Positions 4,044 to 64,000 of a stretch of DNA of 64,000 nt are shown here, in pieces. The number at the start of each line of letters is the position of its first letter. The stretch's first letter is position 1. The translations under genes and the position numbers were made by a program. Below the pieces are notes generated by a model. It saw only the letters and a list, made by a program, of their open reading frames with translations, had not been told where the DNA came from and ran no database searches. The stretch is from NCBI GenBank assembly GCA_002351925.1, contig DEHM01000019.1, positions 14,942 through 78,941 on the forward strand, written 5' to 3'. Origin of the DNA: Bacteroidales bacterium UBA2800. GTDB lineage: Bacteria; Bacteroidota; Bacteroidia; Bacteroidales; Paludibacteraceae.

Positions 4044-4047
4044 ACTA

Positions 4048-41589: not shown

Positions 41590-41608
41590 CCCACGCAAAA
41601 AACGGGTG

Positions 41609-42056: not shown

Positions 42057-42161
42057 CGTCTCGTTTGGCAAATGGGCCGAAATGTTTGAATAGGAGTTAG
42101 CGAAATGGGAATCCTAAGAGTCACAGAATCAACCTTTTCTGCTAAAGCAGAAGGAAAACGG

Positions 42162-47720: not shown

Positions 47721-48788
47721 GTGAAAAAAATCGCGACATACATATTATTATTGATTCTCCTTGTGAATGTAGGATGTTCACCGGAAGAGAAAACGAAGGT
47801 GGGTATGCCGTTCTCATTGTGCCTTCCGGCAACGGAGGTACATTCGGCGAGCCGTGCCCCTATGCGTCGCGTTTTGAGTGACCCGGGTATGACCGAGTAT
47901 TTTTCGTTGCCGCATTATTTATATATTATCGTTCTTAAAAAGAACGGAGTCAACTGGGAACTATGGAATACAATGGAGCGTACGTTAACAGATGAGGACT
48001 GGCTGTTAACGCATTATAATGGTACGCTCGAAACAGAAGGAGATAGCGTATATCAATATTTAGGGCAATTGAATCTCCTGCTGTCCAATGAAAAAATAGA
48101 GGGGCGTGTATATGCTATAGCCTCTGCAGTACCTCTGACGCTTAGTCAACCTATAGGTACGATATCCAGCCTTAGTGATGTACTGAATCTTACGTTCTCT
48201 ACATCATCCGAAACGATGCAAGAGAATTTACAACACATATATACAACACCTTATAACTATAAAGTATCAGGTGACTATTATGGATCTTTTAGTAGCGCAA
48301 CCCATCGGGTACCGCATGTGAGCCTTATGCTTTACCATGTGGCGGCGAAGGTAGATATCATCTGGAATGTGCCTAATGATGATCGTATAAAAGCCAATCC
48401 TGCTGAGGCGGTACGTCTTACTTATATGGAGGTGCGCCGTCTGTACAATGGGGATGCGTATTGCTTCCGCCCGCTCAAAAATGAGATGGCTTCTCTACCG
48501 ACTTCGGGAGGATACGACATTCCGGATATGGTAAGAGCAAACGATGAAGGCCTCTGGTGGGAAGGTCGAACCTATTTCTACACCATTCCGTATTACGTGG
48601 CGGGAGAGGCAAATTATTTTCCCGTTCAAATGGTGCTTTGCACGAATGGCACTGCCAAAGCGGATGGGTATAAACTGACACTGAAACAACCATTTGATAC
48701 AACGGCAGTTTTTGTGCCTTGGGTAAGGGGAATATTTAATCTCACGCAGCCCTTGGCGAATACAGAAGAAACTAAGACTTGGGATTGA
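47721..48788 (+). CDS. Fimbrillin-fold accessory lipoprotein (Mfa3/Mfa4-like position)
   Basis: GTG start 2 nt after the upstream stop. Lipobox LVNVGCS, an Arg cluster (SASRAPMRR) and a YHVAAKVDIIW motif of the kind seen in FimA/Mfa-family pilins. Confidence 0.55.
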   Translation: MKKIATYILLLILLVNVGCSPEEKTKVGMPFSLCLPATEVHSASRAPMRRVLSDPGMTEYFSLPHYLYIIVLKKNGVNWELWNTMERTLTDEDWLLTHYNGTLETEGDSVYQYLGQLNLLLSNEKIEGRVYAIASAVPLTLSQPIGTISSLSDVLNLTFSTSSETMQENLQHIYTTPYNYKVSGDYYGSFSSATHRVPHVSLMLYHVAAKVDIIWNVPNDDRIKANPAEAVRLTYMEVRRLYNGDAYCFRPLKNEMASLPTSGGYDIPDMVRANDEGLWWEGRTYFYTIPYYVAGEANYFPVQMVLCTNGTAKADGYKLTLKQPFDTTAVFVPWVRGIFNLTQPLANTEETKTWD

Positions 48789-48790
48789 GA

Positions 48791-48822
48791 ATTTGTAGAT
48801 TTGAAGATTTGAAGATAAGACG
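48791..48822. repeat. Octad repeat ATTTG(T/A)AG x3 plus ATAAGACG at the junction with the giant ORF
   Basis: atttgtag atttgaag atttgaag ataagacg. It contains the candidate TTG start at 48809. Confidence 0.9.
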
Positions 48823-51800
48823 TTACATAGTATTATTAGTAATGTTCGTGTGGGCGTGCGCATGTGCGTACGCGCAGACCAACGATACGATTCGTTATGT
48901 CCATCCGGATGGCTCTTATAGCAACAACGGACGCAGTTGGGCAACGGCGAAGAACCGCGTGCAGGACGCTATCAACGATCTGCACGAATATATGCTTACC
49001 TACGGCAAGACCTCCGGTTCCGTATATATCGCCGCCGGTACATATACGCCGACCGAATCGACCGAGTCGAGTGGTGGTTCGATGCTCAACACGTCCTTTA
49101 AGATCTACGCCGGTATCCATGTCTATGGTGGCTTCGACCCCGATGCTCCGGAGTCCCGTCCGGGCCTGCGTATCATGGCCAACGACAAGACCTGCGAGGA
49201 GAACTGGTCCGACCCTTCGGGTATCGGTACTACCTCCGGTACGGAGATTGCTTCACAGTGGGATTTGAAGCACAAGACTATCCTTACCGGAAACCACTCC
49301 GGTGCAGCCGTTTCCTTTGTGTTCGACTCCATCCGCGGACGATATACCACCACCTATCCGGCCAGCTCCTACCACGTAGTCTGGTTCGCTACCAATGGCA
49401 AATACGACACCTCAGACGATGCGCTCAAGGACCATTACAAGCCGCTGCAGTATCCGGCGTCGCTGGACGGATGTGTGATCTCCTCGGGTAATGCTTCCAG
49501 CCGTAGCACCACTATCCGCGAGCATACGGCCTACGGTGGCGGTGTGTATATGGTGGGCAATAGTTCGATGCGCGCCTGTATCGTGGAGCGCTGTAACGCT
49601 ACGCTGCGAGGCGGTGGTATCTACGCCGACGGCGGTGGTGACATCGAGTTCTGCTATATCCATACCTGTCAGTCGCCCGGTGTGGGTGTGGTACAAGGCT
49701 ACGGTGGCGGTGTGTGTATCGACCATGAGGGCTCTATCGGCCACAGCCAGATTTCCTGCTGTGCCGCTCGTTGCGGTGGTGGTCTGATGATTAGCCACGT
49801 CAGCGACGAATATCCGTGGACCGAACGTGTGGCTGCGGCTGTGCTCGGCGTCAACGACACTATCACCAGCAATTACTCGCCTCATACGACCGCATGCGTC
49901 ATCAATAATAATACCGCCAATGCCGAAGGCGGCGGTATCTATCTCGCCGAAGGCGGAACGGTCAACCATGCCACGGTCTGCGGCAACAACTGCTCCGGTC
50001 TGGACGTCACCTACTACGGTCGTCGTCACGGTCGTACGGGCGGTATCTATGTCCGCAACTGCGGTATGATGTTCAACTCCGTCTTCTGGGGCAACCGTTG
50101 CGATGCGAACAACGATATCCAGTTCGCTTCCGTGCGTCAGAAGACTGGTGCAGCCGCTGCGGGCTTTGAGATCTTCGCCTACCATACCGCCTTCATGAAC
50201 CACGATATCTCCGACTGGACCGGCGTGACCAAAGAGGCGGTGTACTCGCTCGATCATAGTAATATGCCGACGCAGAGTTCCAGTGCCAACCACCCCTGTT
50301 TCTTCCATCCGACGGTAGACCCCAATAACTGGGACAGCGTGAACACGACGGTAGGTATCTACGGCGCGGGTGTGCTGATGCATATGCGCCCTGTGGACTA
50401 TCCCGGTCCGCGTATCTGGCACTTGACCTCCTATTCCGGCTTGGACCAAAAGGGCGTGCAGTGGAACGAAGCTGTACAAGGTGCTTCCCCGTGGCTGATT
50501 CATGCGCATACGGACTATGGCGTCGTATCTAACCCGTACGAACCGGTATCAACGCTCGGTGCCTTGGTGCGTAAACCCGATCAGTTGAGGTATGAACTTG
50601 TCATTCCTCAATCCAAGGAATACGACAGAAACCCGGCGCCCATCCCGACGCTGTTCGTGGATCCGAATAGGAAGGGCAGCTATGATGAGAATGGTAATTT
50701 CGATCCGCAAGATCACGAAGGTGACTCATGGGACGCACCTATCAAGGACCTTGGTGAGGCCATCTCCTTCTTCCGCCAGTATCTGGTAGCCGATGAGGAT
50801 AACCGTGAGAACCACCACTATATGATTCCGGCCTTGGACGAAGACGGTAGGCCTACCGGTGAACCGACACGCTATGACTACGTCCAAATCCTCGTCAAAG
50901 AAGGTACGCTGACCACGGTGGGACCGGGTAACTACCTCGACCGTAATATCCGTACGGCGGCTGTTCGTATAGAGAGTCATATGCGTATGTACGGCGGATA
51001 TCCCTCTACGCTGACCGGTACGAATACCGAGGGACGTAACCCGCGTGAATACAAGTCCATCATCACGGCGAACATCACTGGAAACACGGGAGATGCGGGA
51101 TACCGCAATAACTCGGCGCACGTTATTGCGATGGTCAATGCCGAACATGCAATCGTGGATGGTTTCACGCTCTCCGATGCCAATACGCATAATGTCTATC
51201 TGTCTAATTCGGCCAAAGCTGGTGGCGGTCTGCTGCTCAATAACGCTTCTATCCCTCAAGCAGAGCGTATCGACATGACCGGTAACCAGTTGCGTAATAG
51301 CGTCATCAACAACTGTACCTCGCCCAAAGGTGCGGCCGTCTATGTGAATGGAGAGTGGGAGAGATGGGACGGAGAGATCTGTTATGCTGAGTTGATGCTC
51401 GTCAACTGCGTGGTACGCAATAATACCGCGGACTATTCGCTAGAAGAAGGAGATTATGTCAACGACCACGGTATCATCACCGCAAACGGTCGTGCCTACG
51501 TCCATGTGGAGCACTGTACCGTCGTCAACAACGTGGGCTTTCCTTTCAAGGCCGAGAGTAAAGATACTGAAACCGACGAACCGATTCAATGTCATCATTC
51601 CGAGCATGGATTCCAGACGCCTTACCACGGGTATATCCGTGTGGATAACTCGATCATATTCTGTAACTCCGACCGCTCCGTGGAGGACCATTCTAACCTC
51701 GGTGAAGTGGCAAACGTGCTGTCGGTAAACCCGGACGGACAGGATCATGTGTTCGGTAAATACAATATGTTCGATGCCGATATCGTGCTGCATAAAAGCG

Positions 51801-54800
51801 ATGTACACAAGCCGAGCGGTTTCTTCCAGGAAGACTATCATGTGCCTATCCCCGGCGATTTCCTCCCGGATGGTATCAGTTCACACTTCACAGATGATAT
51901 AGCGGCAATCCCTTCCGATAGTGCGGCGCGCGATAACAAATGTTTCTTGACGCGTACCGATATGAACGCTGCTACCTATCCGACTTTCGTCAACCCTTCG
52001 CGTAACGTAGGCCATTCTACGAGTGGTGATAAAGCCCTGTATGGCGGTAATGTAGCCTATACGCCGATGACCACCAACCCTGTCGTCAATGCTGCCGGAC
52101 GCGATGAATACACGACCTATTATGACTATGACCGCTCGGATGTAACAAAACGTGATCGAGGTGGCGCACCGGATGTGGGAGCTATCGAGAATACTGATCT
52201 GCCCGAAGCCGGTTCCGTCATTTATGTCACCCCGGAGGGCGCAGGCAAACGCGATGGTTCGTCGTGGTCTAATGCCATCGCCGGAAATACGGTGTATGTG
52301 CTGGATAGTATAGCCGGTCCTGCTCTGGCTACCGGCGATCAGATAGATGCGGAACCTACCTGCAACCGCGTGCTTGATAGCGAAGGCAATCCGATTCACA
52401 CTACCAACGAGAAATACAACGGAGGTTGGGGTAGAGTGTGGTTTACTGAGAAAAAGACAGGTGCTACATCTACCACTACCGTCACCAAGACATGGACAAC
52501 AGAGAAGAACGTATATGACAATGGAACCAGAGCAGGCGAAGAGGAGTCTATACAAGATAATGTCTATTCCGAGAGTACGAATACGATAAGCACATCAGGA
52601 AGTGCACAAGAAGGTTTTGTAGCCGGCTACGATTACGATCCGCGCTATCCGTATGGTGAGATATCCGGTGCTTCGCGTACCTTCTGGCGCGCGAATCCCT
52701 ATCCGGGGAATGCCAGCTCCTATAACATAAATTCGTTTACGGCCGGTTGTAAAGCAAATGGTTGGATTAACAATACCCGCGCGGAGCGCTATGTCGGCGG
52801 TTTGCAGTATGCGGTAGAGAAGGCTTCTGCGCGCAACAAAGCCAACAAGGATTCTGTCCAGGTATGGGTGGGAGCCGGTCAGTATACCGATTATAAGGGT
52901 TTCATCATGCGCGATAGCGTATCCGTCTACGGTGGCTTCCCAGTACGTAAGTATCCGGCTCCTGGTATGGCGGAACGTCAGGCCTTGATGTCCGACCCGG
53001 ACGTAGTAAGTATTCCTAAATCGAAGCCGGCCAAAGACTTCGATGCCACAGACTATGAGACGATACTACAGATTTCGGATGTGAATCCGAAGGGCACTAA
53101 TACGGCTTTGAATACCGATGCAGTAAAGTATTGGGACGATGACTATTCTTACTCAGAAGCAACACAAACAACTCAGTACGAATACAAAAGCCGCACGATT
53201 GTACATCACTACGAATATAACGAAGTGGAACAAGTGGGTGAGGATGTGCAGGATACGTACATGCAGTATGCCAATATGACGAAAAGCGGCGGCACTAATG
53301 TAGTAACCACTAAATCTACCTCTTATTCCGGAGACAATAGTACTGTTTTTGTTACCTTTGGTACTGAAGGCGACTTGGATTGTTGGCATGTGTCGTACCC
53401 TAATAAAGAGAATTTTGTCGTCTATGTAGAAACGAATAGTAACGCCACCGGCAAGACGAGAGATATATATAATCCATCGAACAACCAGAAAATACCTGCC
53501 CCCAATACCTATTCGGGGAACTGGATATTCTTAGGTAATGGCTCCATGGCGGGCTTGAATCTATGGCAGGAGATGCGCAATATGCCTGCTGGCCAATATC
53601 GAATGTCTTTTGATTTAGGTGGAGAATATAAGAATAAGATTTTTGCTAATGATCCTCTCAATATTTTCGTATGTGTGGTAGATGGGAATGGGGAGGGCAT
53701 TTCTGATACAATAAGTCTTAAATCTCGTACCAATAACAAAGATCAAAACCGTAATTCAGCCTATCGCTTTACAGTTGATTTTAATCTGCCTTCAGCGGGA
53801 AATGCGGTATTTAAGTTGTTTATAGGCGATGGAAACAAAAATACCAAAGCCAACAATCCCACGTACGGAACAGATACCGGTGTTGACCCTGACGAGATTC
53901 CATGTTTGTATGTTAATAAAGAAAATAAGAATGTTTGCCCGTCAAAAGAGGCAGATAAATGGGGCTCGTACAATCCGAATGCTCGTGAGTTCTGGCTCTC
54001 CAATATTCATATCAAACCGTTAATCCCTGCCGGGACATACGGACTCATAAGTACCGATGATAATACGGTAGAGAAGGGAGATGTTCCGCACGAAGATCCG
54101 GTGATTTCGGAAACAAAAATATATACGCCTCAAACTCATCGTACCACGCTGCGTAAGCGCGTATTGACCATGCCGGATGTGTGTGTGCCTACCTTCGGCG
54201 GCGGTGGTATCGGTGACCCTGTGACGATGGCGTATGCTTTCACGCAAGATGCTTTACCGCATACCGATCGTGTAAAAGGCCCGAGTAAAGATAAACGTAC
54301 AGCGGCTACATTGGCGAAACAAGAAGATCTGCATTATGTAGAATATAATGATGTTAACTGGGATGGTTTTACCATTCGTCACGGATTTTTGTATGACGAA
54401 TCGATGGCGCATGGCGGTGGTGCAGGTGTCAATATGTACGAAGGAGCTCACCTGCGCAACTGTATCGTCATTGACAATCTGTCAGCCTGCTCGCGTATAA
54501 AAGGTGGCGGTATATTCTGTGATGGCGCCACATCCACTATCGAAGGCTGTTTCGTGCTGAACAATGCATCTAAAGGTGGTACTCAAGTCTCCCAGCAACA
54601 GGTATTTGCTGGCGGTATGTTCATGTATGAGGGTACGTGTTTCAACTCCCTCTTTGCTAACAACTATAGTTACGGTTCAGCCGGTGGTCTGGGCTTCTGT
54701 GTAGGTCGATTCTTCAATAATACCATCGCTTATAATACCGCTACTTTGGTAGAAGCTGGAAGTAGCAGTATCAGCGGTGGTGCCATTTCGCTTGCTACGG

Positions 54801-57800: not shown

Positions 57801-60800
57801 ACAATATCCCTATCGTGGTAGAGAACTGCTTCTTTACCAATAATATGGCTGGTAACGGTGGCGCTATCTACTCCAATGGCGGTATCTATGCCTACGGCAA
57901 CCGCTTCACGCAGAACTACTCGCAGGGCCCGATAACTAAGCTCGACCAGAACTATATCCCCTGGACAGCCGGTGGTTGTATCGCTACCAATGCCTTCTGC
58001 GGTGTGTCCAATAGCTTGTTCGACAACAACGAGGCGCGCCGTGGTCTCTATCCGCTCAAAGCCGTATCGGCCGATCCTATCCCCAATGCAGATGCACGTC
58101 AGGGATTCGGCGGATGTCTCTCTATTGCCGATAAGTCCACCACGCGCGTCGTCAACTGCCACTTTATGAAGAACAAAGCGGTGGCCTATTCCGCCATGTA
58201 TAACTTCTATCCCAACAACCGCTATGTGGGCGATGCAGATCATCCACGGTCCGACTCGATGCAGTATGCCTTCAATACCATCTTCTGGGGTAACGAGGTA
58301 TTCGAGGTGGATCACCTGACCGACTTAGAGCACGGTACGGAGGGCTGGGATGCAGAAGACGATGCCTTGCTCACGGCCTCGAGCGCCACCTTCGACACCA
58401 ACTACAAAGCGTCTCGCGCCGGTGTGTTCCACTACGACGGCGAAGAGTGGGATAAATACGAGAAACTCTTCCACGAGTACGACAGTATCTACAACTATTG
58501 GACCTCGTCCGACCGACCCTTGGGACAGCGAACACCGTTCCATCCTACCGCCTTGGCAAAACTTGCTGAACTGCGAGCGCAGGGAAATAAGATAGAGGGA
58601 CTCTATTTCTGCTCCTATCGTAAGACCTATGGTCCTACGGGTATGAAGCCGACTTCGGAGGGATACCTGCTCACACCGGAAGAACACGCTGCATGGAAAG
58701 ATCCGCGAAGCAGAACGGTGAAGACCAAGACCGATGCCAACAACGATAAGGTGGAAGACTATACCGACATGTGGACGCAGGTCAGCGGAAACAACAATAC
58801 GCTTATCAACCGTATCAATACCGCCACCGACGGACCTAACTTCCGACAACCGTCCTTCGTAGCCGGTATCGATGGCTATATGCAGAATGCCGACTGGCTT
58901 CAGGCCCGTATGAACCTCACTACCGACCAAGGCTGGGGATTCCTCAAACAGACCGTAGAACGCGGTATATCCTACTATATCACCCGTCATACGGGTACCA
59001 CGCAGTTCGATAATGCAGCCGATGCGTTAGAGGCGGCGCAGAAAGCACATCCGGGCGCCACCGCGGCCGACGTCTTCCCTGTCTACGGTCACCCCGTTGC
59101 TTCGTTCCGGCCGGCAATAGAGCAGACCGATACGGCCATGTACAACTTCCTGGCATGGCGCTACGGACGTATGATGTCCGAGTCCAACGCCCCGCTGCCG
59201 CTGGGCGACCAGTACTACATGAACTATACCCAATCGTCGAGCGACTCGGAGACAAGCGGAAACATGGACCGTATATCCAAACACCCGAAGATGGGCGAGA
59301 CCGAAGTCTATATCGACCTCGGTATATACGAATACCAGTACGTCCAACTCGATATCAAGGGACAGGAGATCGATACCGTCTGGGTAGCTACCAAAGCCAA
59401 AGATCCGCTCCACCAGGACGGTCTGACGTGGGAGACGCCTACTACCGATCTGCAGGCGGCTATCGACCTGCTCATGTCCTCCCACAACAACCACGATAAG
59501 TACGTCTGCTTCTTGGGCAACGAGGAAGGCGAGACCTTCTCGCCGCAGAACGTCATCGACAACCGTCGTGGCTATATCATCACCTCTTCGTCCCATTCGC
59601 CGCTGCTGCCCGATAGCGCCCAGACCGACTACGACTACGGCGTCAATAGTCTGAACTTCCTCGGCGGATATAGCTTCGATGTCAAGACCGCGAAGCGTGA
59701 CCCGCAGAGCCATCCCGTAGTCATCGAGATGCCTGATGTCGGCAATGAGAACCAGCGTAACCAGCTCTTTATCATCGAGGATATGACCCGACAGATGCTC
59801 CAGGCCAACTTCGTCGGCAAATATACCTCGCGCGACTCCGTCGTCATACCTATCGTCTTCGATGGTATCACCTTCATCAACCCGTACTCCACGAAAGACC
59901 CGGCACCGGAAGGAACGCTTAATAACCTCGGTGGTTCGATGAGCAAGAAGGGTGGTGCGGCTATCTACTATCGTTGGCAACGCCGCTACGAGGACGACGG
60001 TACCCATACCGGTACGCCTAATTTCCGCTTGGCGCTCCATCCCGACTCGGCCCTCATCGACGGACGTAAGGTCACGCTGCCTAAACTGACGATATCCAAC
60101 TGTATCTTCATGGATAACGGTAAGCGTACGACGAACCATGCCGAGCGTTCGCCGGCCGTACGTATTGACCATGGTGGCGGTTCCAGCCTTATCGTCAATA
60201 CCCTCTTCCATTCCAATGCGGGTGCGCCCGTCTATGCGCGTACCTATGATATTCTCGAACAAGAGAACGACCTGGCTGCCGTACCAAACGATGTCGTGAT
60301 GGTCAACGTGACGTCGGCCCTCAACGACGGACATATACGTCTCGAGTCGGAGAATAGCGAGGTGCACAACTCTCTCATCTGGATGGATGACCTCCATAAC
60401 GACACGACAATCCAGCTCCAAATGGGTGCTTCCGACCAATGGGATAAGACTACCAACAAGAATCGCGAAGGCATCGACGGACGAATGTCCTATAACGCCG
60501 TATGGGGATGCTTCCAGGTACCGGCATGGGGTGAAGAGAATAGTACCGGTGATCCGGTGGGCTTTAACCACCCGCTGTCTTCCGACAACAACGACGTTTA
60601 TAAGGGACCGGGCTTCCTGTCGCCGCACGTCACGGCTACTACTTCCGAGCAACGGCGCGAGCGCTCGTTCCGACTCAACCCCTCTATCCGTACCCACGAG
60701 AAAGCCAATCGGGAGATATACCTCAGCCGTGTCTTCTTCCGCGTTTATCCCGACACCTGCGCCGCAACCCACAATAAGTACTGGCGTCGCTCCAACGGAT

Positions 60801-63658
60801 TCAAGTCGCTCTCATTTACGGGTATAGTCGACGAGCTGGCTAACGACTCCGACCTCGCCTCCAAACCGCGTGTGTCCGGTGAAGGCATGGAGCGTGGTGC
60901 CTACGAGTGTCTGGCCGTCCTCCAGCGTGTGCTCTACGTCCGTCCGGAACTGCCTGCCTCCAGCGCTGGCGACGGCTCGTCCTGGGAGAACGCCTTCGGA
61001 CAAGGACAACTCCAGAACGCCATCGATGCCGCCGCGGTATATACCTATATGTACCAGAATCTGCCGCGGGAGGACAGAAAAGCCTATGTCTTCGTCAAAG
61101 GTACCGGTAGTTCCACCGAGCACTACGATATCGTGGCGCGTGATGGCGTCTATGTATATGGCTCCTTGCCCGGCTACTTCCTCGACGAGGCTTGGAAGGA
61201 TGAGGATAAATTTACCAACGAGGAGTGCCACCGCTATGTCAACTACGTTCGTGCCACAACGCTGGGTGTAGCGGCTCCGAATGCACCGCAGACCAAGATC
61301 AACTCTATCCGCATCACCGGTGATGAATTCAAGACAGGCTTCCTGCTGGACGGATTTGTCATCACCAACCCCACCCGCGAGTTGACGATGTCGCCCGTGC
61401 TGATCGACAACGATAGTGCGGCTGTGCGCAACTGTCTCATCGTCGACAACCGCATCGCCGGTCCCGACCACCCGATAGCCAATGTGAAGCACGGCTTGCT
61501 CTACAACTGCCTCTTCTACAACGACTCCGCAGCGGTGATGGTCAAGGTGGGCGCCGACGGACTGGTGCTCAACAATACCATTGTGACGAATAGTTCGGAT
61601 GTGACTCCCATGGACGATACCGAGGCAACAGCCGGAGCCGTGCAGAACAACATCAGCGGACGACTGTCGTCGCTCACCTGCTTCGCGCCATACATGACAG
61701 CCAACAACCCCTACACGCTGCCCGCATACCTGACCAACCACGAGCCGCTCGCCTTCCAACTCCATGAGCAGAGTATGATGCTCAATAGCGGAACAATGGA
61801 TACCGCACTGCCGTCCCTCTTCGACGACTATAAGGCGGATAATATCATCAACTTCAAGTGGGACCGCGATGTGCTCGGCAACCCGCGTAAGATCAGCTCG
61901 TCGGTCGACAAGGGTGCACTCGAGACTTGGTATGTGGCCAAGAACAAAGGCCAGGAGATAACGGCCATCACCAACCGTGTGCCTTATACCGAAACCGATG
62001 ACGTGGCGCGCGATACGGCTTACACCAAGAACTTCGGCGGACACTATTATCCGCACGCCGGTTCGGTAGTCTATCTCATGGATAGCAGTGCCATGTCGAT
62101 GCAGTATGCGACGGCCGATGACTTCAAGGACTTCCGCAATCAGGATATCGTCTTCAGTCCGGGATTCCTGCTGCTCAAACCCGCTGCGTCGTTCTACGGC
62201 AACGGCCATCTCGCCCAGATAGAATATATCGCGGCAGAGAAGCGCTTCAAGAACCAGCGCTATTCGATGACTGCCTTCCCGTTCGACTACTCGAAGGCCA
62301 ATATCACTATGTCGCATTACGATCCGGGAACAGGAGCTCTCAACTCTCAACTCTCAACCTTCAACTTTAATACCTACCGCTACAACGGTGCTGCGCGTTC
62401 GGCCAAGGACTATGTCTTCCAGACCGACAACTCCTCGCTCTGGCAGTCGGTAGCTACACCTAACCGCACCGCCACCGACGGCTACCTCATGGACTTTGGT
62501 TCCACTCTTACCGATACCGTCCTTCGCTTCAACGCCTTTGCTCCGGTGGACAACCAATATGTCTATACCGAGGGTGAAGATGAGGACTCCGACGGCTATC
62601 CCGACGACAAGTCGGTCTACCTCACCCAGTACGACAACCGCACCGCCGGTACCGGCTCCGAACTCAACTTCACCAGCATGGAGAACATGGGCTGGAACAT
62701 GAAGGGTCTGCCCTGGCTCGTGTCCAACTACCGCACCGATACCATCCTCTGGGCCGATAACTTCCTGCGCCAGATGTATATCCCCCATGTGATCTACCAG
62801 ATGGACGGCGCAGGCGAGTATATCACCGAGGGCGACAAGGTCTATACCTCGCGTTCGTGGGATCGCGGTTCTACCGTCTCCATGGGTAACGCGTTCTTCA
62901 CCCAGACGGCTACCAAGCAGGATCAGGAAGAGGTGATCTTCCATCTGCCCTACTATGCACGCAACGAGAAAGCCAGTCGTCCGCTCTTGCGGATGGTGGC
63001 ACGCCGACCCAATAGTGCGCCGACACGTCAGGGCGCAAGTGCCTCTACCGTGATGTCCGATATCCTTACCGTCATGCCCGATCCCGAGGCCGCTAAGACG
63101 GTGGTCTATGCGTACGGTCGTGATGGGGTCAAGTGGCAGTCCGACGCCGGCACCTCCCAACTCTATATGCTCGATTCGAAGCGACAGTCGCGTATCTCGC
63201 TCCTCGGTGCTGCGCCGACCGAAGTCGACATACCGCTCGGCGTATCTATACCTTCCGACGGGGCATTCTCCTTCTCGCTGCCCGAGAAAGAGGCCTTTGC
63301 CGGCTACGACTTCGTATGGCTCATCGACTACGAGCGCAACCGCTATACCAACCTCATGGACGAGGACTACGAGGTAGCCATCCCGCAGGGCGAGAACAAC
63401 CATCGTTTTGCCTTGCGTATCGGTGGCTTCCCCAAGACAGACGAGAAGGGACAACGCCAGTATATCGTCTTTGCCGACGATGGTCATCTGTACGTACGCG
63501 GACTTGTGCCCGGCGACCGTATCACCGTCTATTCCGCAGCTGGACATCTTATCTGCTCGGCCGTAGCCGGAGGTACCGAGTGGTCCACGCCGCTGGCATG
63601 GCAGGTGGGCTACGTAGTACGTGTCAACGAGAAAGCGTACAAAGTGATTTATCGATAA
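48809..63658 (+). CDS. Giant secreted surface protein (~4,950 aa): signal peptide, at least 7 tandem right-handed beta-helix (Pmp/choice-of-anchor-Q-like) modules, non-helix inserts and a T9SS C-terminal sorting domain
   Basis: The frame is uninterrupted from 48779 to 63658. In-frame TTG 48809 gives MKIRRYIVLLVMFVWACACAYAQ, a good signal peptide. TTG 48779 and ATG 48842 are alternative starts. There are more than 20 GG[GA][ILV][YF]-type turns. The module-opening motif resembles YV.P.G.G.DGSSW...LQ.AI. The last ~68 aa match the T9SS CTD pattern. Confidence 0.85.
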   Translation: MKIRRYIVLLVMFVWACACAYAQTNDTIRYVHPDGSYSNNGRSWATAKNRVQDAINDLHEYMLTYGKTSGSVYIAAGTYTPTESTESSGGSMLNTSFKIYAGIHVYGGFDPDAPESRPGLRIMANDKTCEENWSDPSGIGTTSGTEIASQWDLKHKTILTGNHSGAAVSFVFDSIRGRYTTTYPASSYHVVWFATNGKYDTSDDALKDHYKPLQYPASLDGCVISSGNASSRSTTIREHTAYGGGVYMVGNSSMRACIVERCNATLRGGGIYADGGGDIEFCYIHTCQSPGVGVVQGYGGGVCIDHEGSIGHSQISCCAARCGGGLMISHVSDEYPWTERVAAAVLGVNDTITSNYSPHTTACVINNNTANAEGGGIYLAEGGTVNHATVCGNNCSGLDVTYYGRRHGRTGGIYVRNCGMMFNSVFWGNRCDANNDIQFASVRQKTGAAAAGFEIFAYHTAFMNHDISDWTGVTKEAVYSLDHSNMPTQSSSANHPCFFHPTVDPNNWDSVNTTVGIYGAGVLMHMRPVDYPGPRIWHLTSYSGLDQKGVQWNEAVQGASPWLIHAHTDYGVVSNPYEPVSTLGALVRKPDQLRYELVIPQSKEYDRNPAPIPTLFVDPNRKGSYDENGNFDPQDHEGDSWDAPIKDLGEAISFFRQYLVADEDNRENHHYMIPALDEDGRPTGEPTRYDYVQILVKEGTLTTVGPGNYLDRNIRTAAVRIESHMRMYGGYPSTLTGTNTEGRNPREYKSIITANITGNTGDAGYRNNSAHVIAMVNAEHAIVDGFTLSDANTHNVYLSNSAKAGGGLLLNNASIPQAERIDMTGNQLRNSVINNCTSPKGAAVYVNGEWERWDGEICYAELMLVNCVVRNNTADYSLEEGDYVNDHGIITANGRAYVHVEHCTVVNNVGFPFKAESKDTETDEPIQCHHSEHGFQTPYHGYIRVDNSIIFCNSDRSVEDHSNLGEVANVLSVNPDGQDHVFGKYNMFDADIVLHKSDVHKPSGFFQEDYHVPIPGDFLPDGISSHFTDDIAAIPSDSAARDNKCFLTRTDMNAATYPTFVNPSRNVGHSTSGDKALYGGNVAYTPMTTNPVVNAAGRDEYTTYYDYDRSDVTKRDRGGAPDVGAIENTDLPEAGSVIYVTPEGAGKRDGSSWSNAIAGNTVYVLDSIAGPALATGDQIDAEPTCNRVLDSEGNPIHTTNEKYNGGWGRVWFTEKKTGATSTTTVTKTWTTEKNVYDNGTRAGEEESIQDNVYSESTNTISTSGSAQEGFVAGYDYDPRYPYGEISGASRTFWRANPYPGNASSYNINSFTAGCKANGWINNTRAERYVGGLQYAVEKASARNKANKDSVQVWVGAGQYTDYKGFIMRDSVSVYGGFPVRKYPAPGMAERQALMSDPDVVSIPKSKPAKDFDATDYETILQISDVNPKGTNTALNTDAVKYWDDDYSYSEATQTTQYEYKSRTIVHHYEYNEVEQVGEDVQDTYMQYANMTKSGGTNVVTTKSTSYSGDNSTVFVTFGTEGDLDCWHVSYPNKENFVVYVETNSNATGKTRDIYNPSNNQKIPAPNTYSGNWIFLGNGSMAGLNLWQEMRNMPAGQYRMSFDLGGEYKNKIFANDPLNIFVCVVDGNGEGISDTISLKSRTNNKDQNRNSAYRFTVDFNLPSAGNAVFKLFIGDGNKNTKANNPTYGTDTGVDPDEIPCLYVNKENKNVCPSKEADKWGSYNPNAREFWLSNIHIKPLIPAGTYGLISTDDNTVEKGDVPHEDPVISETKIYTPQTHRTTLRKRVLTMPDVCVPTFGGGGIGDPVTMAYAFTQDALPHTDRVKGPSKDKRTAATLAKQEDLHYVEYNDVNWDGFTIRHGFLYDESMAHGGGAGVNMYEGAHLRNCIVIDNLSACSRIKGGGIFCDGATSTIEGCFVLNNASKGGTQVSQQQVFAGGMFMYEGTCFNSLFANNYSYGSAGGLGFCVGRFFNNTIAYNTATLVEAGSSSISGGAISLATASNPNLFVANTIIFGNNGIAIRDRNTAVGNVNPFLYCYIQSAASQPYNATKQNVTNWTPSATGNYGIGNTFLNGVAPSAENTPFAADFDEEGNYVAGRAASLNDFRLRDDVPCVNKGTEEFAAEFYTALIHKGKTDSQIRNSFIYKSVEAAVLPDNDVAFAHRVQDCQIDMGAYEYNAAYNIMPDTTTHPGHAIFYTTYVAPGGDASARSPENAACMQKLQLVLDAAGRYKNRLMTEAQYDKGNTTDFVSQDPNKYWTVEVWLEGNNEGTTTTNEYKEGYVPTRSTRHSEATYQDNTLDYSFMVPHGVHVMGGFQDNFYHYEDAAGNRYTAPGKGRFIVDDRDPLTFRTVLSGNITSSTGAKGQTYHVVTFVNDLFSPDDEKIIGDGNQLATLTNERDRAVLDGLFLMDGKANAPDPEGQIGGACVVTDYAHVRNCVIQNNSADLYGGGLYLKPRALVSGTIVKYNTANVGGGIYVEAPAVSPKMNDSLAYVFYTTVCENTARASAGGLFFANTYARINSSAIWHNSANDNANVAGNFARSADSIPYPLNCCAVESRRLEGQGNIELSPREKEGVRWDRQDPFNAILYYPIEMSSTLARAGISYSEWDNFCATFATLDSIDIAGVSRKRWTSDGSERGFAWGSDTLVTKNNDVIDIGARAINKDFQVHVDTNHVMHRIYVVHTELIDSRAARALQDNPLDNDVANMYRQLGSCIYNPFHRLSDAFEYVIAARMAQPDKYRNTRFEIFVEQGTYYPFRDAYRRQGAVRMNTFLVPEAVLVVGGVDSRPADHKYGQEGFKSPFSTVHMIGDGSDVAIEGTTDPSTGEPYKIHFEYTDSIRLRDARHRPMRDNNLNSVIEPWELERQTILSGNAVAGEDFTHVYHVITCHADNRYVGPRPIKYGAINPTYGYPGHEDEQVLTEPLPDDVPERWVEENDLSILARTIGFDGLQITGGYANHIDSTDAKDVFVTKTYFRGGGIFVDGNWWEGAEDTPPDMTQPAQNNIPIVVENCFFTNNMAGNGGAIYSNGGIYAYGNRFTQNYSQGPITKLDQNYIPWTAGGCIATNAFCGVSNSLFDNNEARRGLYPLKAVSADPIPNADARQGFGGCLSIADKSTTRVVNCHFMKNKAVAYSAMYNFYPNNRYVGDADHPRSDSMQYAFNTIFWGNEVFEVDHLTDLEHGTEGWDAEDDALLTASSATFDTNYKASRAGVFHYDGEEWDKYEKLFHEYDSIYNYWTSSDRPLGQRTPFHPTALAKLAELRAQGNKIEGLYFCSYRKTYGPTGMKPTSEGYLLTPEEHAAWKDPRSRTVKTKTDANNDKVEDYTDMWTQVSGNNNTLINRINTATDGPNFRQPSFVAGIDGYMQNADWLQARMNLTTDQGWGFLKQTVERGISYYITRHTGTTQFDNAADALEAAQKAHPGATAADVFPVYGHPVASFRPAIEQTDTAMYNFLAWRYGRMMSESNAPLPLGDQYYMNYTQSSSDSETSGNMDRISKHPKMGETEVYIDLGIYEYQYVQLDIKGQEIDTVWVATKAKDPLHQDGLTWETPTTDLQAAIDLLMSSHNNHDKYVCFLGNEEGETFSPQNVIDNRRGYIITSSSHSPLLPDSAQTDYDYGVNSLNFLGGYSFDVKTAKRDPQSHPVVIEMPDVGNENQRNQLFIIEDMTRQMLQANFVGKYTSRDSVVIPIVFDGITFINPYSTKDPAPEGTLNNLGGSMSKKGGAAIYYRWQRRYEDDGTHTGTPNFRLALHPDSALIDGRKVTLPKLTISNCIFMDNGKRTTNHAERSPAVRIDHGGGSSLIVNTLFHSNAGAPVYARTYDILEQENDLAAVPNDVVMVNVTSALNDGHIRLESENSEVHNSLIWMDDLHNDTTIQLQMGASDQWDKTTNKNREGIDGRMSYNAVWGCFQVPAWGEENSTGDPVGFNHPLSSDNNDVYKGPGFLSPHVTATTSEQRRERSFRLNPSIRTHEKANREIYLSRVFFRVYPDTCAATHNKYWRRSNGFKSLSFTGIVDELANDSDLASKPRVSGEGMERGAYECLAVLQRVLYVRPELPASSAGDGSSWENAFGQGQLQNAIDAAAVYTYMYQNLPREDRKAYVFVKGTGSSTEHYDIVARDGVYVYGSLPGYFLDEAWKDEDKFTNEECHRYVNYVRATTLGVAAPNAPQTKINSIRITGDEFKTGFLLDGFVITNPTRELTMSPVLIDNDSAAVRNCLIVDNRIAGPDHPIANVKHGLLYNCLFYNDSAAVMVKVGADGLVLNNTIVTNSSDVTPMDDTEATAGAVQNNISGRLSSLTCFAPYMTANNPYTLPAYLTNHEPLAFQLHEQSMMLNSGTMDTALPSLFDDYKADNIINFKWDRDVLGNPRKISSSVDKGALETWYVAKNKGQEITAITNRVPYTETDDVARDTAYTKNFGGHYYPHAGSVVYLMDSSAMSMQYATADDFKDFRNQDIVFSPGFLLLKPAASFYGNGHLAQIEYIAAEKRFKNQRYSMTAFPFDYSKANITMSHYDPGTGALNSQLSTFNFNTYRYNGAARSAKDYVFQTDNSSLWQSVATPNRTATDGYLMDFGSTLTDTVLRFNAFAPVDNQYVYTEGEDEDSDGYPDDKSVYLTQYDNRTAGTGSELNFTSMENMGWNMKGLPWLVSNYRTDTILWADNFLRQMYIPHVIYQMDGAGEYITEGDKVYTSRSWDRGSTVSMGNAFFTQTATKQDQEEVIFHLPYYARNEKASRPLLRMVARRPNSAPTRQGASASTVMSDILTVMPDPEAAKTVVYAYGRDGVKWQSDAGTSQLYMLDSKRQSRISLLGAAPTEVDIPLGVSIPSDGAFSFSLPEKEAFAGYDFVWLIDYERNRYTNLMDEDYEVAIPQGENNHRFALRIGGFPKTDEKGQRQYIVFADDGHLYVRGLVPGDRITVYSAAGHLICSAVAGGTEWSTPLAWQVGYVVRVNEKAYKVIYR
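62337..62371. repeat. Heptad repeat CTCTCAA x3 perfect plus 2 degenerate, inside the giant ORF
   Basis: ctctcaa ctctcaa ctctcaa ccttcaa ctttaat. It encodes ALNSQLSTFNFN. Confidence 0.92.
63452..63655 (+). other. T9SS C-terminal sorting domain (CTD) coding segment of the giant ORF
   Basis: QRQYIVFADDGHLYVRGLVPGDRITVYSAAGHLICSAVAGGTEWSTPLAWQVGYVVRVNEKAYKVIYR fits the Por_Secre_tail pattern (..I.VY...G.L.........L..G.Y.V.V......K.I.). Confidence 0.75.
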
Positions 63659-63664
63659 GGATTC

Positions 63665-64000
63665 TTAGAACTTAGCACGGAGCAGGAGATGGATGTCCGT
63701 GCGAGAGAGTGGGCGGTCGTGATCGATCGCCCACCGGCGTGTATAGAGGGTCTCTGAGACGCGCAGATAGAGGGCGAGCTGAGGGATGACCTGCCAGTGC
63801 AGGCACAGATAGGCCCGTCCGCCGACGCCATAGACGGCGGGGATGGAGAAGGCGTAGAGGACGTCGTTCTCGTAGCAGTAGATGCGGTTGTCCCACTGCC
63901 GGGCATCGAAGAGCTGCAGGCGCAGCCGCAACGAGAGAGGGGCAGGACGGGCCAGCGGGAGGGAAGAAAAATCGAACATCAAGTCCTCGTACACGGTGAC
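63665..64000 (-). CDS. C-terminal part of an outer-membrane beta-barrel-type protein; 5' end lies outside the window
   Basis: The frame is open to the window edge. The protein ends ...IHLLLRAKF, an aromatic C-terminus typical of OM barrels. Convergent with the giant ORF across a 6-nt gap. Confidence 0.5.
   Translation of the reverse strand, partial: VTVYEDLMFDFSSLPLARPAPLSLRLRLQLFDARQWDNRIYCYENDVLYAFSIPAVYGVGGRAYLCLHWQVIPQLALYLRVSETLYTRRWAIDHDRPLSRTDIHLLLRAKF

What the first reader, a model, noticed from the sequence alone, without database searches (positions are those of the whole stretch)
48809..63658. Concatenated architecture of the giant ORF: at least seven beta-helix modules with a recurring opening motif
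Seen: segments resembling (I/L/V)(Y/F)V.P.G.....(D)GSSW..A...LQ.AI..A recur at about nt 48890 (IRYVHPDGSYSNNGRSWATAKNRVQDAINDL), 50650 (LFVDPN...GDSWDAPIKDLGEAISF), 52216 (VIYVTPEGAGKRDGSSWSNAIAGN), 55380 (YVAPGGDASARSPENAACMQKLQLVLDAA), 56826 (RIYVVHTE...HRLSDAFEYVIAA), 59378 (VWVATKAKDPLHQDGLTWETPTTDLQAAIDLL) and 60928 (LYVRPELPASSAGDGSSWENAFGQGQLQNAIDAA). Each is followed by runs of GG[GA][ILV][YF] and N-rich turns (GGGIYA, GGGLYL, GGAIYS, FxxN). Established: these are hallmarks of right-handed parallel beta-helix surface proteins (chlamydial Pmp-type GGA[ILV]/FxxN repeats, Bacteroidetes T9SS beta-helix cargo). Inference: the protein looks like several complete single-module beta-helix adhesins fused head to tail. 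The modules are divergent rather than recent duplicates, and there is one signal peptide and one CTD.
Basis: partly seen in the sequence, partly recalled or inferred. Interest (0 to 1): 0.7.

Follow-up and report, generated by a model that had tools for sequence, protein, structure and literature searches.

The report
Giant seven-module beta-helix surface protein
A real, intact 4,949-residue gene of a rumen Bacteroidales bacterium encodes seven anciently diverged beta-helix modules and a type IX secretion tail, and it is the last gene of a conserved fimbria-like gene cluster, so it is probably a giant sugar-binding surface fibre or pilus tip.

Summary
The ORF at 48779-63658 is uninterrupted, with a likely TTG start at 48809. 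All seven "opening motifs" lie in frame at the stated positions.

Profile comparisons link all seven modules at 93-99% probability. AlphaFold2 models of modules 1+2 and of module 7 plus the C-terminus are confident, and their closest solved structures are right-handed beta-helices.

There are exactly seven modules. Each ends in a D-x-G-A-x-E motif. Module 3 is split by two inserted domains. About 500 non-helix residues and a type A T9SS C-terminal domain follow module 7.

The frame is not an assembly artefact. Colinear orthologues of about 4,000-4,600+ aa occur in dozens of Paludibacteraceae and Prevotellaceae genomes. These include several Segatella bryantii isolates, where the 4,128-aa orthologue is annotated "T9SS type A sorting domain-containing protein".

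The gene is the fifth in a conserved cluster: DUF3575/OmpA, a 595-aa lipoprotein, an Mfa2-family anchor, a 355-aa lipoprotein, then the giant protein. This mirrors mfa1-mfa5 of Porphyromonas gingivalis, where Mfa5 is the T9SS-secreted pilus tip protein.

Most likely it is a T9SS-exported, glycan-binding adhesive fibre, possibly mounted on a type V pilus. The function is inferred, not shown.

The parts
42105..43349 (+). AraC-family regulator (414 aa) with a hydrophobic N-terminal half, upstream of the cluster
   Evidence: Pfam HTH_18 and HTH_AraC. A homologue sits upstream of the cluster in 21 of 80 related loci, all of them Paludibacteraceae-type loci (L005-L068) apart from a partial match in L081.
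43450..44859 (+). Gene 1 of the cluster: DUF3575 beta-barrel-type protein with a weak OmpA-like C-terminal part (469 aa)
   Evidence: Pfam DUF3575 at 2e-43; OmpA at 4e-4, below cut-off. Present upstream in 60 of 80 loci.
44899..46686 (+). Gene 2: 595-aa lipoprotein, candidate stalk subunit
   Evidence: Lipobox LTGC|S. The family has more than 557 members of about 580 aa, none with a Pfam domain. Conserved RRMPG/PRKMP Arg site about 35 residues after the Cys. The N-terminal pro-segment is shared with the 355-aa protein (hhalign probability 94.5). The last 22 aa are shared with the Mfa2-like protein (probability 79). No PDB sequence match.
46708..47718 (+). Gene 3: FimB/Mfa2-family anchor-type lipoprotein (336 aa)
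   Evidence: Pfam Mfa2 PF08842 at 21.6 bits, above the 21.2 cut-off. 17 of 34 orthologues match, best 6e-9. Lipobox FVAC|N. The Hallella orthologue is named 'Fimbrillin-A associated anchor protein Mfa1 and Mfa2' in UniRef.
47721..48788 (+). Gene 4: 355-aa lipoprotein, candidate tip or adaptor subunit, immediately upstream of the giant gene
   Evidence: Lipobox NVGC|S and a conserved R-x-x-G-D-P-G site. Adjacent to the giant gene in 76 of 80 loci. 1 of 37 orthologues weakly hits Mfa_like_1. The S. bryantii orthologue is named 'Fimbrillin family protein' in UniRef.
48809..63658 (+). Gene 5: the giant ORF (4,949 aa from TTG 48809; the frame is open from 48779)
   Evidence: Colinear orthologues.
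48809..48874 (+). Signal peptide, with predicted signal peptidase I cleavage at AYA|Q
   Evidence: Read from the sequence. 'AQ' just before T-x-D-T-I-R-Y-V is conserved in at least 80% of 51 family members, whereas the Cys residues are not. No signal-peptide predictor was run.
48884..50596 (+). Module 1 (aa 36-606), beta-helix; the most conserved module
   Evidence: AF2 model with Foldseek. hhalign to all other modules at 93-99%. 16.8% of positions are at least 94% invariant.
50642..52207 (+). Module 2 (aa 622-1143), beta-helix; ends in DVGAIE
   Evidence: Sub-threshold Pfam Beta_helix.
52214..55348 (+). Module 3 (aa 1146-2190), a split beta-helix: cap A 52214-52318, cap B 52784-53218, core 54329-55348; ends in IDMGAYE
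   Evidence: hhalign: cap A matches the module 1 and module 7 caps; cap B matches module 1 aa 61-169; the core matches module 1 aa 219-439 at 98.9%. Weak choice_anch_Q hit at aa 2160-2184.
52319..52783 (+). Insert 1 in module 3 (aa 1181-1335), a domain of unknown fold
   Evidence: No similarity to any module. Absent (0 aa) in the cultured Prevotella-type homologues. GC3 0.48.
53219..54328 (+). Insert 2 in module 3 (aa 1481-1850), the most variable part of the protein; candidate ligand-binding domain
   Evidence: No similarity to any module. Reduced to 23-66 aa in the cultured homologues. The same site holds an F5/8 type C (discoidin) domain in Prevotella sp. P5-92, at 8e-29. GC3 is 0.42, against 0.66-0.74 in module 4 through the stalk (0.61 in the CTD). 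No PDB or Pfam match.
55370..56788 (+). Module 4 (aa 2198-2670), beta-helix; degenerate opening motif; ends in IDIGARA
   Evidence: hhalign to module 1 at 99.4%. Sub-threshold Chlam_PMP repeat.
56825..59344 (+). Module 5 (aa 2683-3522): beta-helix at about 2714-3229 plus a tail of about 290 aa; ends in IDLGIYEYQ
   Evidence: hhalign to module 1 at 99.2% over 389 columns. Sub-threshold Beta_helix and Chlam_PMP.
59372..60913 (+). Module 6 (aa 3532-4045), beta-helix; ends in MERGAYE
   Evidence: hhalign to module 2 at 96.8% over 280 columns and to module 7 at 96.9%.
60920..61933 (+). Module 7 (aa 4048-4385), a short beta-helix; ends in VDKGALETW
   Evidence: AF2 pLDDT above 90 in this part. HK620 tailspike is the top match. 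hhalign to module 1 at 97.3%. Sub-threshold Beta_helix and DUF1565.
61934..63418 (+). C-terminal beta-rich stalk (aa 4386-4880), not a beta-helix and not repeated elsewhere in the protein
   Evidence: Its HMM hits only itself. The AF2 model is all-beta. Roughly the last 185 aa of this stretch (about aa 4695-4880), together with the CTD, are sequence-homologous to the last ~270 aa of Flavobacterium RemA, at 1e-13.
63419..63655 (+). T9SS type A C-terminal sorting domain (about aa 4881-4959)
   Evidence: Foldseek to the RemZ CTD 8gl8_D: probability 1.00, TM 0.68, rmsd 3.1. Profile hits to RemA and RemZ. TIGR04183 matches 7 of 12 orthologous C-termini, best 1.7e-7. Motifs B, D and E are visible in the alignment. 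The window's own copy does not reach the models at E<=1.

Best explanation
Shown:
- The gene encodes one 4,949-aa polypeptide.
- It consists of a Sec signal peptide, seven homologous but anciently diverged right-handed beta-helix modules, a beta-rich stalk of about 500 aa, and a type A T9SS C-terminal domain.
- Each module runs from an (I/L/V)(Y/F)V...DGxSW...LQxAI cap to a D-x-G-A-x-E closing motif.
- Module 3 carries two inserted domains.
- This architecture and the gene order DUF3575/OmpA, 595-aa lipoprotein, Mfa2-family lipoprotein, 355-aa lipoprotein, giant protein are conserved across rumen and gut Paludibacteraceae and Prevotellaceae.

Inferred:
- The protein crosses the inner membrane by Sec and the outer membrane by the T9SS, guided by its CTD.
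- The CTD is removed by the PorU-type sortase.
- The mature chain is displayed as a long, semi-rigid string of beta-helices, with module 1 and the variable module 3 insert as the exposed binding parts.
- It probably binds glycans (plant cell wall, mucus or other microbes).
- The cluster copies the logic of mfa1-mfa5 of P. gingivalis: lipoprotein stalk, anchor and adaptor subunits with Arg-cleavable pro-segments and C-terminal donor strands, plus a last gene for a non-lipoprotein T9SS cargo. The most specific reading is therefore that the giant protein is the Mfa5-equivalent accessory or tip adhesin of a type V-like pilus.

Rough probabilities: architecture and T9SS cargo about 0.9; adhesive, non-catalytic role about 0.6; physical association with a pilus about 0.45.
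For: - Intact frame and motifs.
- Module homology.
- Fold.
- CTD. The S. bryantii orthologue is named 'T9SS type A sorting domain-containing protein'.
- Reality of the giant ORF: the frame stays open for at least 4,370 aa in about 37 loci with a full downstream flank. Complete 4,029-4,296-aa ORFs occur in cultured isolates, and 4,128-aa copies occur in at least six S. bryantii/baroniae records. More than 100 representative clusters are 3.7-5.6 k aa long.
- Colinearity of orthologues.
- Synteny.
- Mfa2 family membership of gene 3.
- Lipoboxes, Arg sites and shared terminal strands.
- Glycan-binding hint: a discoidin domain occupies the module 3 insert site in Prevotella sp. P5-92.
- Invariant residues are mostly Gly and Asn, that is, structural.
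- Literature: Mfa5 is a tip protein with a signal peptide and a T9SS CTD (PMC7835359). It is T9SS-secreted and PorU-cleaved, and Mfa3 acts as adaptor (PMC5954841). T9SS cargo with 1-3 pectin-lyase-fold domains is common in P. intermedia (PMC11969387).
Against: - No Pfam model reaches its threshold anywhere in the giant protein.
- The window's own CTD is not detected by TIGR04183 or PF18962 at E<=1.
- The 595-aa and 355-aa lipoproteins have no detectable sequence relation to solved type V pilins or to fimbrillin Pfam families, apart from 1 weak hit in 37.
- The giant protein has no vWA domain, so it is not an Mfa5 homologue.
- No T9SS machinery gene lies in the window.
- The closest beta-helix structures are mostly enzymes, so catalysis is not excluded.
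- Several relatives carry frameshifts or stop codons, so the gene may be dispensable.
Confidence: 0.62

Rival explanations
1. It is a free-standing T9SS surface fibre. The giant protein is secreted and attached covalently to surface lipopolysaccharide through PorU, like most type A CTD cargo. The upstream lipoproteins and the DUF3575/OmpA protein form a separate structure or a dedicated outer-membrane platform, and are merely co-regulated with it.
For: A type A CTD is sufficient for anchoring in known systems (PMC11969387). There is no recognisable pilin domain or donor strand in the giant protein. The stalk and adaptor candidates are not demonstrably pilins.
Against: The 355-aa lipoprotein gene is adjacent to the giant gene in 76 of 80 loci, across two families. 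The cluster composition closely parallels mfa1-5, including a bona fide Mfa2-family member.
Confidence: 0.25
2. It is a multi-catalytic polysaccharide-degrading enzyme. Some or all of the beta-helix modules are lyases, hydrolases or esterases acting on pectin-like or other plant or host glycans, tethered to the cell by the T9SS.
For: The nearest structures are carbohydrate-active beta-helix enzymes: tailspike endoglycosidases, GH136 LnbX, BT_1002, pectin methylesterases, chondroitinase B and AlgE4. The hosts are rumen polysaccharide degraders.
Against: No CAZyme-type Pfam family is hit, even weakly. Positions invariant across 51 orthologues are dominated by Gly, Asn and Cys, with no obvious conserved acidic clusters. 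The genomic neighbours are fimbrial-type genes, not SusC/SusD or CAZyme genes.
Confidence: 0.1
3. It is an assembly artefact or a pseudogene: the long frame joins separate genes, or it is a decaying relic.
For: Some related assemblies show stops or frameshifts: L001, L002, L003, L013, L023, L029, L033, L037, L043, L044 and L068.
Against: The frame is intact in the window and in most loci, including isolate genomes with identical 4,128-aa products in several independent assemblies. The breaks lie at different positions, several of them (for example L023 and L029) with jumps in identity that suggest chimeric metagenome joins. Conservation is high along the whole length.
Confidence: 0.03

Closest known systems
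T9SS cargo built from pectin-lyase-fold (right-handed beta-helix) domains, as catalogued in Prevotella intermedia (PMC11969387)
   Same: Signal peptide, beta-helix domains and a C-terminal type A CTD with motifs B, D and E. Same bacterial order.
   Different: The described cargo has 1-3 beta-helix domains. This protein has seven, plus two inserted domains and a ~500-aa stalk. It is 4-5 k aa long and sits in a fimbrial-type cluster.
Mfa5 of Porphyromonas gingivalis (fifth gene of the mfa1 type V fimbria operon)
   Same: It is the last gene of a cluster that also encodes a lipoprotein stalk candidate, an Mfa2-family anchor and an accessory lipoprotein. It is not a lipoprotein itself. It has a signal peptide and a T9SS CTD.
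   Different: There is no sequence homology. Mfa5 has a vWA domain and Ig-like domains with an isopeptide bond and is about 1,200 aa long. This protein is all beta-helix and four times longer. The cluster here has one accessory lipoprotein rather than two, and adds a DUF3575/OmpA gene.
RemA / RemZ (Flavobacterium johnsoniae T9SS-secreted cell-surface proteins; PDB 8gl6, 8gl8)
   Same: The last ~145-265 residues are sequence-homologous, at 1e-13 and 2.6e-12. The CTD fold matches with TM 0.68.
   Different: The passenger regions are unrelated.
Chlamydial polymorphic membrane proteins (Pmp)
   Same: GGA(I/L/V)- and FxxN-type beta-helix repeats. There are sub-threshold Chlam_PMP hits in modules 4 and 5.
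   Different: Pmps are autotransporters with a C-terminal beta-barrel and a single passenger helix. This protein has a T9SS CTD and seven capped modules. The repeat model's threshold is not reached.
Single-module 'right-handed beta-helix plus choice-of-anchor Q' proteins (NCBIfam NF041518; Pfam DUF1565 and Beta_helix)
   Same: The opening cap (YV..G.D..G.SW...LQ.A) and the closing D.G.R....D.GAYE motif of each module look like those of such one-module proteins. There are weak hits at aa 2160-2184 and in module 7.
   Different: Here seven such units are chained in one polypeptide. All hits are below the curated cut-offs.

Membership tests
Right-handed parallel beta-helix (pectin lyase fold) | A three-stranded right-handed beta-helix fold | tested here: met
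   AF2 models of aa 33-1145 (pLDDT 82.6) and aa 4040-4959 (pLDDT 85.4). The top Foldseek matches in the PDB are CBA120 TSP1, LnbX, BT_1002, Rhombotarget A, pectin methylesterases and the HK620 tailspike. Modules 3-6 were not modelled; they are linked to modules 1, 2 and 7 by hhalign at 93-99%.
Right-handed parallel beta-helix (pectin lyase fold) | A Pfam Beta_helix (PF13229) match above the gathering score | tested here: not met
   Only 13-16 bits in modules 2, 5 and 7, against a cut-off of 25.9. Some homologues carry precomputed PF13229 hits.
T9SS type A CTD cargo | A C-terminal beta-sandwich of about 70-80 aa with motifs B, D and E | tested here: met
   Foldseek to 8gl8_D at probability 1.0, TM 0.68. 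Profile hits to RemA and RemZ at 1e-13 and 2.6e-12. The alignment shows V-Y-x-x-x-G, G-x-Y-I-V and a terminal K.
T9SS type A CTD cargo | A match to TIGR04183 or PF18962 | tested here: inconclusive
   The window's own C-terminus gives no hit at E<=1. 7 of 12 orthologous C-termini match TIGR04183, best 1.7e-7. The S. bryantii orthologue is named accordingly by NCBI.
T9SS type A CTD cargo | An N-terminal Sec signal peptide | tested here: met
   Read from the sequence: MKIRRYIVLLVMFVWACACAYA|Q, with a conserved A-Q junction in the family. No dedicated predictor was available.
T9SS type A CTD cargo | T9SS machinery in the genome and T9SS-dependent secretion | not testable with these tools
   No T9SS component was seen in the ORFs of the 64-kb window that were scanned. 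The rest of the genome is not available.
Chlamydial Pmp family | Chlam_PMP repeats above threshold and a C-terminal autotransporter barrel | tested here: not met
   Chlam_PMP scores 14-15.9 bits, below the 20.6 cut-off. The C-terminus is a T9SS CTD, not a barrel.
Mfa5-type fimbrial tip protein | Encoded downstream of stalk, anchor and accessory lipoprotein genes of a type V pilus cluster | tested here: inconclusive
   The anchor gene is met (Pfam Mfa2 above cut-off; 17 of 34 orthologues). The stalk and accessory candidates are lipoproteins with Arg sites and shared terminal strands, but no pilin fold or family was demonstrated.
Mfa5-type fimbrial tip protein | A vWA domain with MIDAS plus Ig-like domains | tested here: not met
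   No vWA or any other Pfam hit. The protein is therefore analogous in position to Mfa5, not a member of its family.
Mfa5-type fimbrial tip protein | Physical incorporation into the fimbria | not testable with these tools
   This needs fractionation, immuno-electron microscopy or interaction assays.
Choice-of-anchor Q domain (NF041518) | An HMM match above the curated cut-off at the end of a beta-helix region | tested here: not met
   20.1 bits against a cut-off of 25, at aa 2160-2184 only. The D-x-G-A-x-E motif does recur at the end of every module.

The most novel reading that the evidence does not exclude
Rumen and gut Prevotellaceae and Paludibacteraceae build a hybrid organelle. A type V (Mfa-like) pilus is assembled from lipoprotein subunits, and its tip is a 4-5 k-aa, seven-beta-helix, glycan-binding rod delivered separately by the T9SS. 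The coupling of T9SS and type V pilus, so far known only for Mfa5 of P. gingivalis, would then be a general and ancient design with an exchangeable giant tip. The variable insert in module 3 (unknown fold here, a discoidin domain in Prevotella sp. P5-92) would set ligand specificity.
Probability: 0.4. Interest if true: 0.72.

Novelty: new variant of a known kind. Interest (0 to 1): 0.55.

Why it matters
Prevotellaceae and their relatives dominate the rumen and many guts, yet how they attach to plant fibre, mucus or other microbes is poorly known. This family is large: 952 proteins at E<=1e-30 among the cluster representatives, and more than 100 giant representatives in the top 150 listed. It is conserved, and it is essentially unannotated. 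No Pfam domain is found in 4-5 k residues, and public names go no further than "T9SS type A sorting domain-containing protein" or "hypothetical".

If the link to a type V-like pilus holds, it would generalise the little-understood hand-over between the T9SS and type V pili. It would also offer tractable cultured models (Segatella bryantii B14, Prevotella sp. P5-92, Hallella mizrahii) for testing it.

Separately, the seven capped modules with sharply conserved junctions are a clean natural example of chaining beta-helix domains into a long fibre.

Tried and rejected
- A homologue search with the whole protein timed out, so I searched with parts instead.
- I first read P0010/L002 as a compact 1,107-aa homologue in the same operon. 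Reading the locus showed four consecutive fragments of a giant homologue fused to a DUF3575 fragment, so I withdrew that idea.
- Self-BLASTP found no internal repeats. Profile methods were needed.
- Pfam and NCBIfam on the whole protein and on single modules gave nothing above threshold.
- PDB sequence searches were empty for the three lipoproteins, both as single sequences and as profiles, and for insert 2.
- hhalign of the 355-aa family against the Mfa2-like family matched only the signal peptide.
- No inverted repeats that would suggest an invertible promoter lie upstream of the cluster. No terminator-like site was found after the gene.
- Literature searches found no paper describing this family. 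That library is incomplete.
- Chlamydial Pmp membership and Mfa5 homology were considered and rejected (see the membership tests).
Full report
**Observation.** The + strand carries an uninterrupted frame from 48779 to 63658, 4,959 codons. The ten codons before 48809 overlap the end of the preceding gene. TTG 48809 gives a credible signal peptide, MKIRRYIVLLVMFVWACACAYA|QTNDTIRYV, so the product is probably 4,949 aa. Two regular expressions for the motif match five of the seven sites and none of 2,000 shuffles; the sites opening modules 4 and 5 are degenerate. GG[GA][ILVM]x runs occur in modules 1-5 but not in modules 6 and 7.

**Are these modules?** Self-BLASTP finds no off-diagonal match at E<=10, so nothing is a recent duplicate.

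Profile methods do see the repeats. HMMs built from homologue alignments of modules 1, 2 and 7 hit the other modules in register. The cap part of each HMM falls on each opening motif and the core falls on each GG/N-rich region. These hits score 6-40 bits, against a maximum of 4.5 bits in 100 window-shuffled copies of the protein.

I then aligned 50 orthologues with the window protein and ran hhalign on module slices. The probabilities were:

| Pair | Probability |
|---|---|
| M1-M2 | 98.8% |
| M1-M3 core | 98.9% |
| M1-M4 | 99.4% |
| M1-M5 | 99.2% |
| M1-M6 | 93.0% |
| M1-M7 | 97.3% |
| M2-M6 | 96.8% (280 columns) |
| M6-M7 | 96.9% |

The next opening motif follows within about 3-20 residues. 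Both motifs are conserved in the family consensus. The count is therefore exactly seven.

Module 3 is split. Cap A (aa 1146-1168) and cap B (aa 1342-1430) align to consecutive parts of the module 1 and module 7 caps, and the core (aa 1852-2023) aligns to the module 1 core. The stretches between them, aa 1181-1335 and 1481-1850, match no module. The last ~570 residues are unique within the protein.

**Fold.** The AlphaFold2 model of aa 33-1145 (48-row alignment) has pLDDT 82.6 and pTM 0.82. Its best PDB matches are all right-handed beta-helix proteins: CBA120 TSP1, lacto-N-biosidase LnbX, BT_1002, Rhombotarget A (TM 0.49), pectin methylesterases, AlgE4 and chondroitinase B.

The model of aa 4040-4959 (96 rows) has pLDDT 85.4. 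Module 7 matches the HK620 tailspike. The last ~77 residues match the CTD of the T9SS substrate RemZ in the translocon structure 8gl8 (probability 1.00, TM 0.68, rmsd 3.1 Å) and also match PorZ. Modules 3-6 were not modelled because of the prediction cap; their fold rests on homology to modules 1, 2 and 7.

No Pfam family reaches threshold anywhere in the protein. There are only sub-threshold hits: Beta_helix in modules 2, 5 and 7, Chlam_PMP in modules 4 and 5, and DUF1565 in module 7. A weak choice-of-anchor-Q hit lies at the end of module 3.

**C-terminal domain.** The window's own tail does not reach TIGR04183 or PF18962 at E<=1. Other evidence supports a CTD:
- Seven of twelve orthologous tails match TIGR04183, best 1.7e-7.
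- The alignment shows CTD motifs B, D and E as defined in PMC11969387.
- A profile of the region hits the C-termini of RemA (1e-13) and RemZ (2.6e-12) among PDB sequences.
- NCBI names the S. bryantii orthologue "T9SS type A sorting domain-containing protein".

**Is the frame real?** A scan of species-representative genomes returned 80 loci. They come from rumen Paludibacteraceae and other Bacteroidales MAGs (50-75% identity) and from Prevotellaceae (32-41%). The Prevotellaceae include cultured Prevotella sp. AGR2160, P. lacticifex, Hallella mizrahii, Segatella bryantii DSM 11371 and Prevotella sp. P5-108 and P5-92.
- In about 37 loci with a full 10-kb downstream flank, the frame stays open for 4,370-4,610 aa to the end of the stored DNA.
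- Complete ORFs of 4,029-4,296 aa are present in ten loci, including cultured isolates.
- At least six independent S. bryantii/baroniae records hold the same 4,128-aa product.
- The exhaustive representative search found 952 proteins at E<=1e-30. Most of the top 150 are 3.7-5.6 k aa long with 5-17 matched stretches.

Some relatives are broken: L001, L002, L003, L013, L023, L029, L033, L037, L043, L044 and L068. The breaks are frameshifts or single stops at different positions. Several of them (for example L023 and L029) coincide with abrupt changes in identity to the window, which suggests chimeric metagenome joins or occasional decay.

**Age of the architecture.** Complete Prevotella-type homologues align colinearly with the window protein over module 1, module 2, the module 3 core, modules 4-7 and the C-terminus. 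Every module is closer to its positional counterpart in another family than to any sister module. The chain of seven was therefore already in place before Prevotellaceae and Paludibacteraceae diverged.

The main length difference lies in module 3. Insert 1 is absent and insert 2 is reduced to 23-66 aa in the cultured homologues. In Prevotella sp. P5-92 the insert 2 site holds an F5/8 type C (discoidin, galactose-binding-like) domain at 8e-29. In the window, insert 2 is the least conserved part (median identity 33%, no invariant position). Its GC3 is 0.42, against 0.66-0.74 from module 4 to the end of the stalk (0.61 in the CTD).

Whether the seven arose by internal duplication or by fusion of separate genes cannot be decided from these data.

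**Context.** The rest of the window is ordinary chromosome: DnaE, YidC, fumarase, RNase Y and Mfd. Directly upstream, on the same strand, lie four genes:
- a DUF3575 protein with a weak OmpA-like end;
- a 595-aa protein;
- a 336-aa protein that passes Pfam's Mfa2 threshold;
- a 355-aa protein.

All three of the latter have lipoprotein signals. This five-gene order is conserved. Upstream of the giant gene I found the 355-aa gene in 76 of 80 loci, the Mfa2-like gene in 65, and the 595-aa and DUF3575 genes in 60 each; many of the remaining loci lack enough upstream DNA.

Seventeen of 34 orthologues of the 336-aa protein match Pfam Mfa2, best 6e-9. UniRef names orthologues of genes 3 and 4 "Fimbrillin-A associated anchor protein" and "Fimbrillin family protein".

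The 595-aa family has more than 557 members and no Pfam domain. It shares two features with its neighbours:
- With the 355-aa family it shares an N-terminal lipobox, a strand and a conserved Arg site (RRMPG; R-x-x-GDPG), at hhalign probability 94.5.
- With the Mfa2-like family it shares the last 22 residues (LEIGLSVDLNW..G..Y..L), at probability 79.

In type V pili the stalk and tip subunits are lipoproteins that an Arg-specific protease cleaves after their first strand. C-terminal strands are needed for polymerisation. Mfa2 is the anchor. Mfa5, the fifth gene, is not a lipoprotein but a T9SS cargo cleaved by PorU and integrated through the adaptor Mfa3 (PMC7835359; PMC5954841).

The cluster here fits that logic point by point. 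However, the pilin fold of genes 2 and 4 is not demonstrated: sequence and profile searches of the PDB and Pfam were negative or marginal.

**Mechanism proposed.**
- Shown: the domain architecture, the secretion signals, conservation and synteny.
- Inferred: Sec export; T9SS translocation guided by the CTD; CTD removal; and display of a long chain of beta-helices with module 1 (the most conserved, 16.8% invariant positions) and the variable module 3 insert at the exposed end.

Invariant positions are mostly Gly and Asn, which points to a structural scaffold rather than seven active sites. The discoidin swap points to sugar binding. I consider a glycan-binding adhesive fibre most likely. Mounting on a type V-like pilus is the most specific reading, at about 0.45.

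The rivals are a free-standing LPS-anchored fibre, a multi-enzyme, and an artefact or pseudogene.

**Comparison with what is known.**
- Beta-helix T9SS cargo with 1-3 pectin-lyase domains is described for P. intermedia (PMC11969387). This protein is a much larger, seven-module version in a fimbrial context.
- It is analogous in position and secretion route to Mfa5, but not homologous to it, because it has no vWA domain.
- It is not a chlamydial Pmp: the repeat model is below threshold and there is no autotransporter barrel.
- I found no paper on this family in the searchable library.

**Verdict.** The thing itself is a new variant of a known kind. Interest is moderate and would be higher if the pilus link is real.

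Noticed in passing
window 44899-46686, 47721-48788 and 50597-55369: The two candidate pilin genes (GC 0.46 and 0.45) and modules 2-3 of the giant gene (GC3 0.42-0.57) are markedly poorer in GC than the flanking genes (0.56-0.58) and than modules 4-7 (GC3 0.66-0.74). Identities to related loci are mosaic. For example, L023 has DUF3575 at 88% and Mfa2-like at 87%, but the 595-aa protein at only 50%; L032 has the 595-aa protein at 73% but DUF3575 at 42%. This looks like allele exchange of surface-exposed parts, as with fimA genotypes.
   Followed up: partly
L023, L029, L043, L068, L013, L044, L033, L037 (giant-gene homologues): The broken homologues are frameshifted at different places. Several breaks coincide with jumps in identity to the window (62% to 78.5% in L023; 57% to 88% in L029). 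This suggests chimeric strain joins in metagenome assemblies rather than true split genes.
   Followed up: partly
L002 5887-13324: In one 95-kb metagenome contig, a C-terminal fragment of the DUF3575 gene is followed directly by the end of module 4 of a giant homologue, which continues in four frameshifted pieces. This is a large deletion or rearrangement that removes genes 2-4 and modules 1-3.
   Followed up: partly
L001 1-4452 (94% DNA identity to window 59520-64000): A close relative has a deletion inside the opening motif of module 6 (after TWETPTTD) that shifts the frame. The last 920 aa are 99% identical, but aa 3592-4040 are much less so.
   Followed up: partly
L079 13571-14608 (Prevotella sp. 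P5-92): F5/8 type C (discoidin) domains occupy the same insertion site in module 3 that holds an unannotated domain in the window.
   Followed up: yes
proteins P0359-P0409: A second subfamily of 3.7-4.4 k-aa proteins matches the module 1 profile only from about residue 440-490 onward. These proteins carry an extra N-terminal region of about 450 aa that the window protein lacks.
   Followed up: no
window 46621-46686 and 47653-47718: The 595-aa lipoprotein and the Mfa2-like lipoprotein end in the same 22-residue motif ((L/A)(E/S)(I/V)(G/S)(L/I)(S/T)(V/L)D(L/W)..G.....(N)L). This is a candidate donor strand for subunit-subunit joining.
   Followed up: partly
window 40426-41598 (-) and 42105-43349 (+): Two divergently placed AraC-family regulators precede the cluster. 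The second has a long, hydrophobic, probably membrane-embedded N-terminal half, which is unusual for AraC proteins. A homologue is kept upstream of the cluster, almost exclusively in the Paludibacteraceae-type loci.
   Followed up: partly
window 54929-63547, minus strand: Long antisense ORFs (up to 581 aa, for example 59027-60772 and 60812-62350) run inside the giant gene. They coincide with the high-GC3 half of the gene and are most likely a by-product of codon bias, not genes.
   Followed up: no
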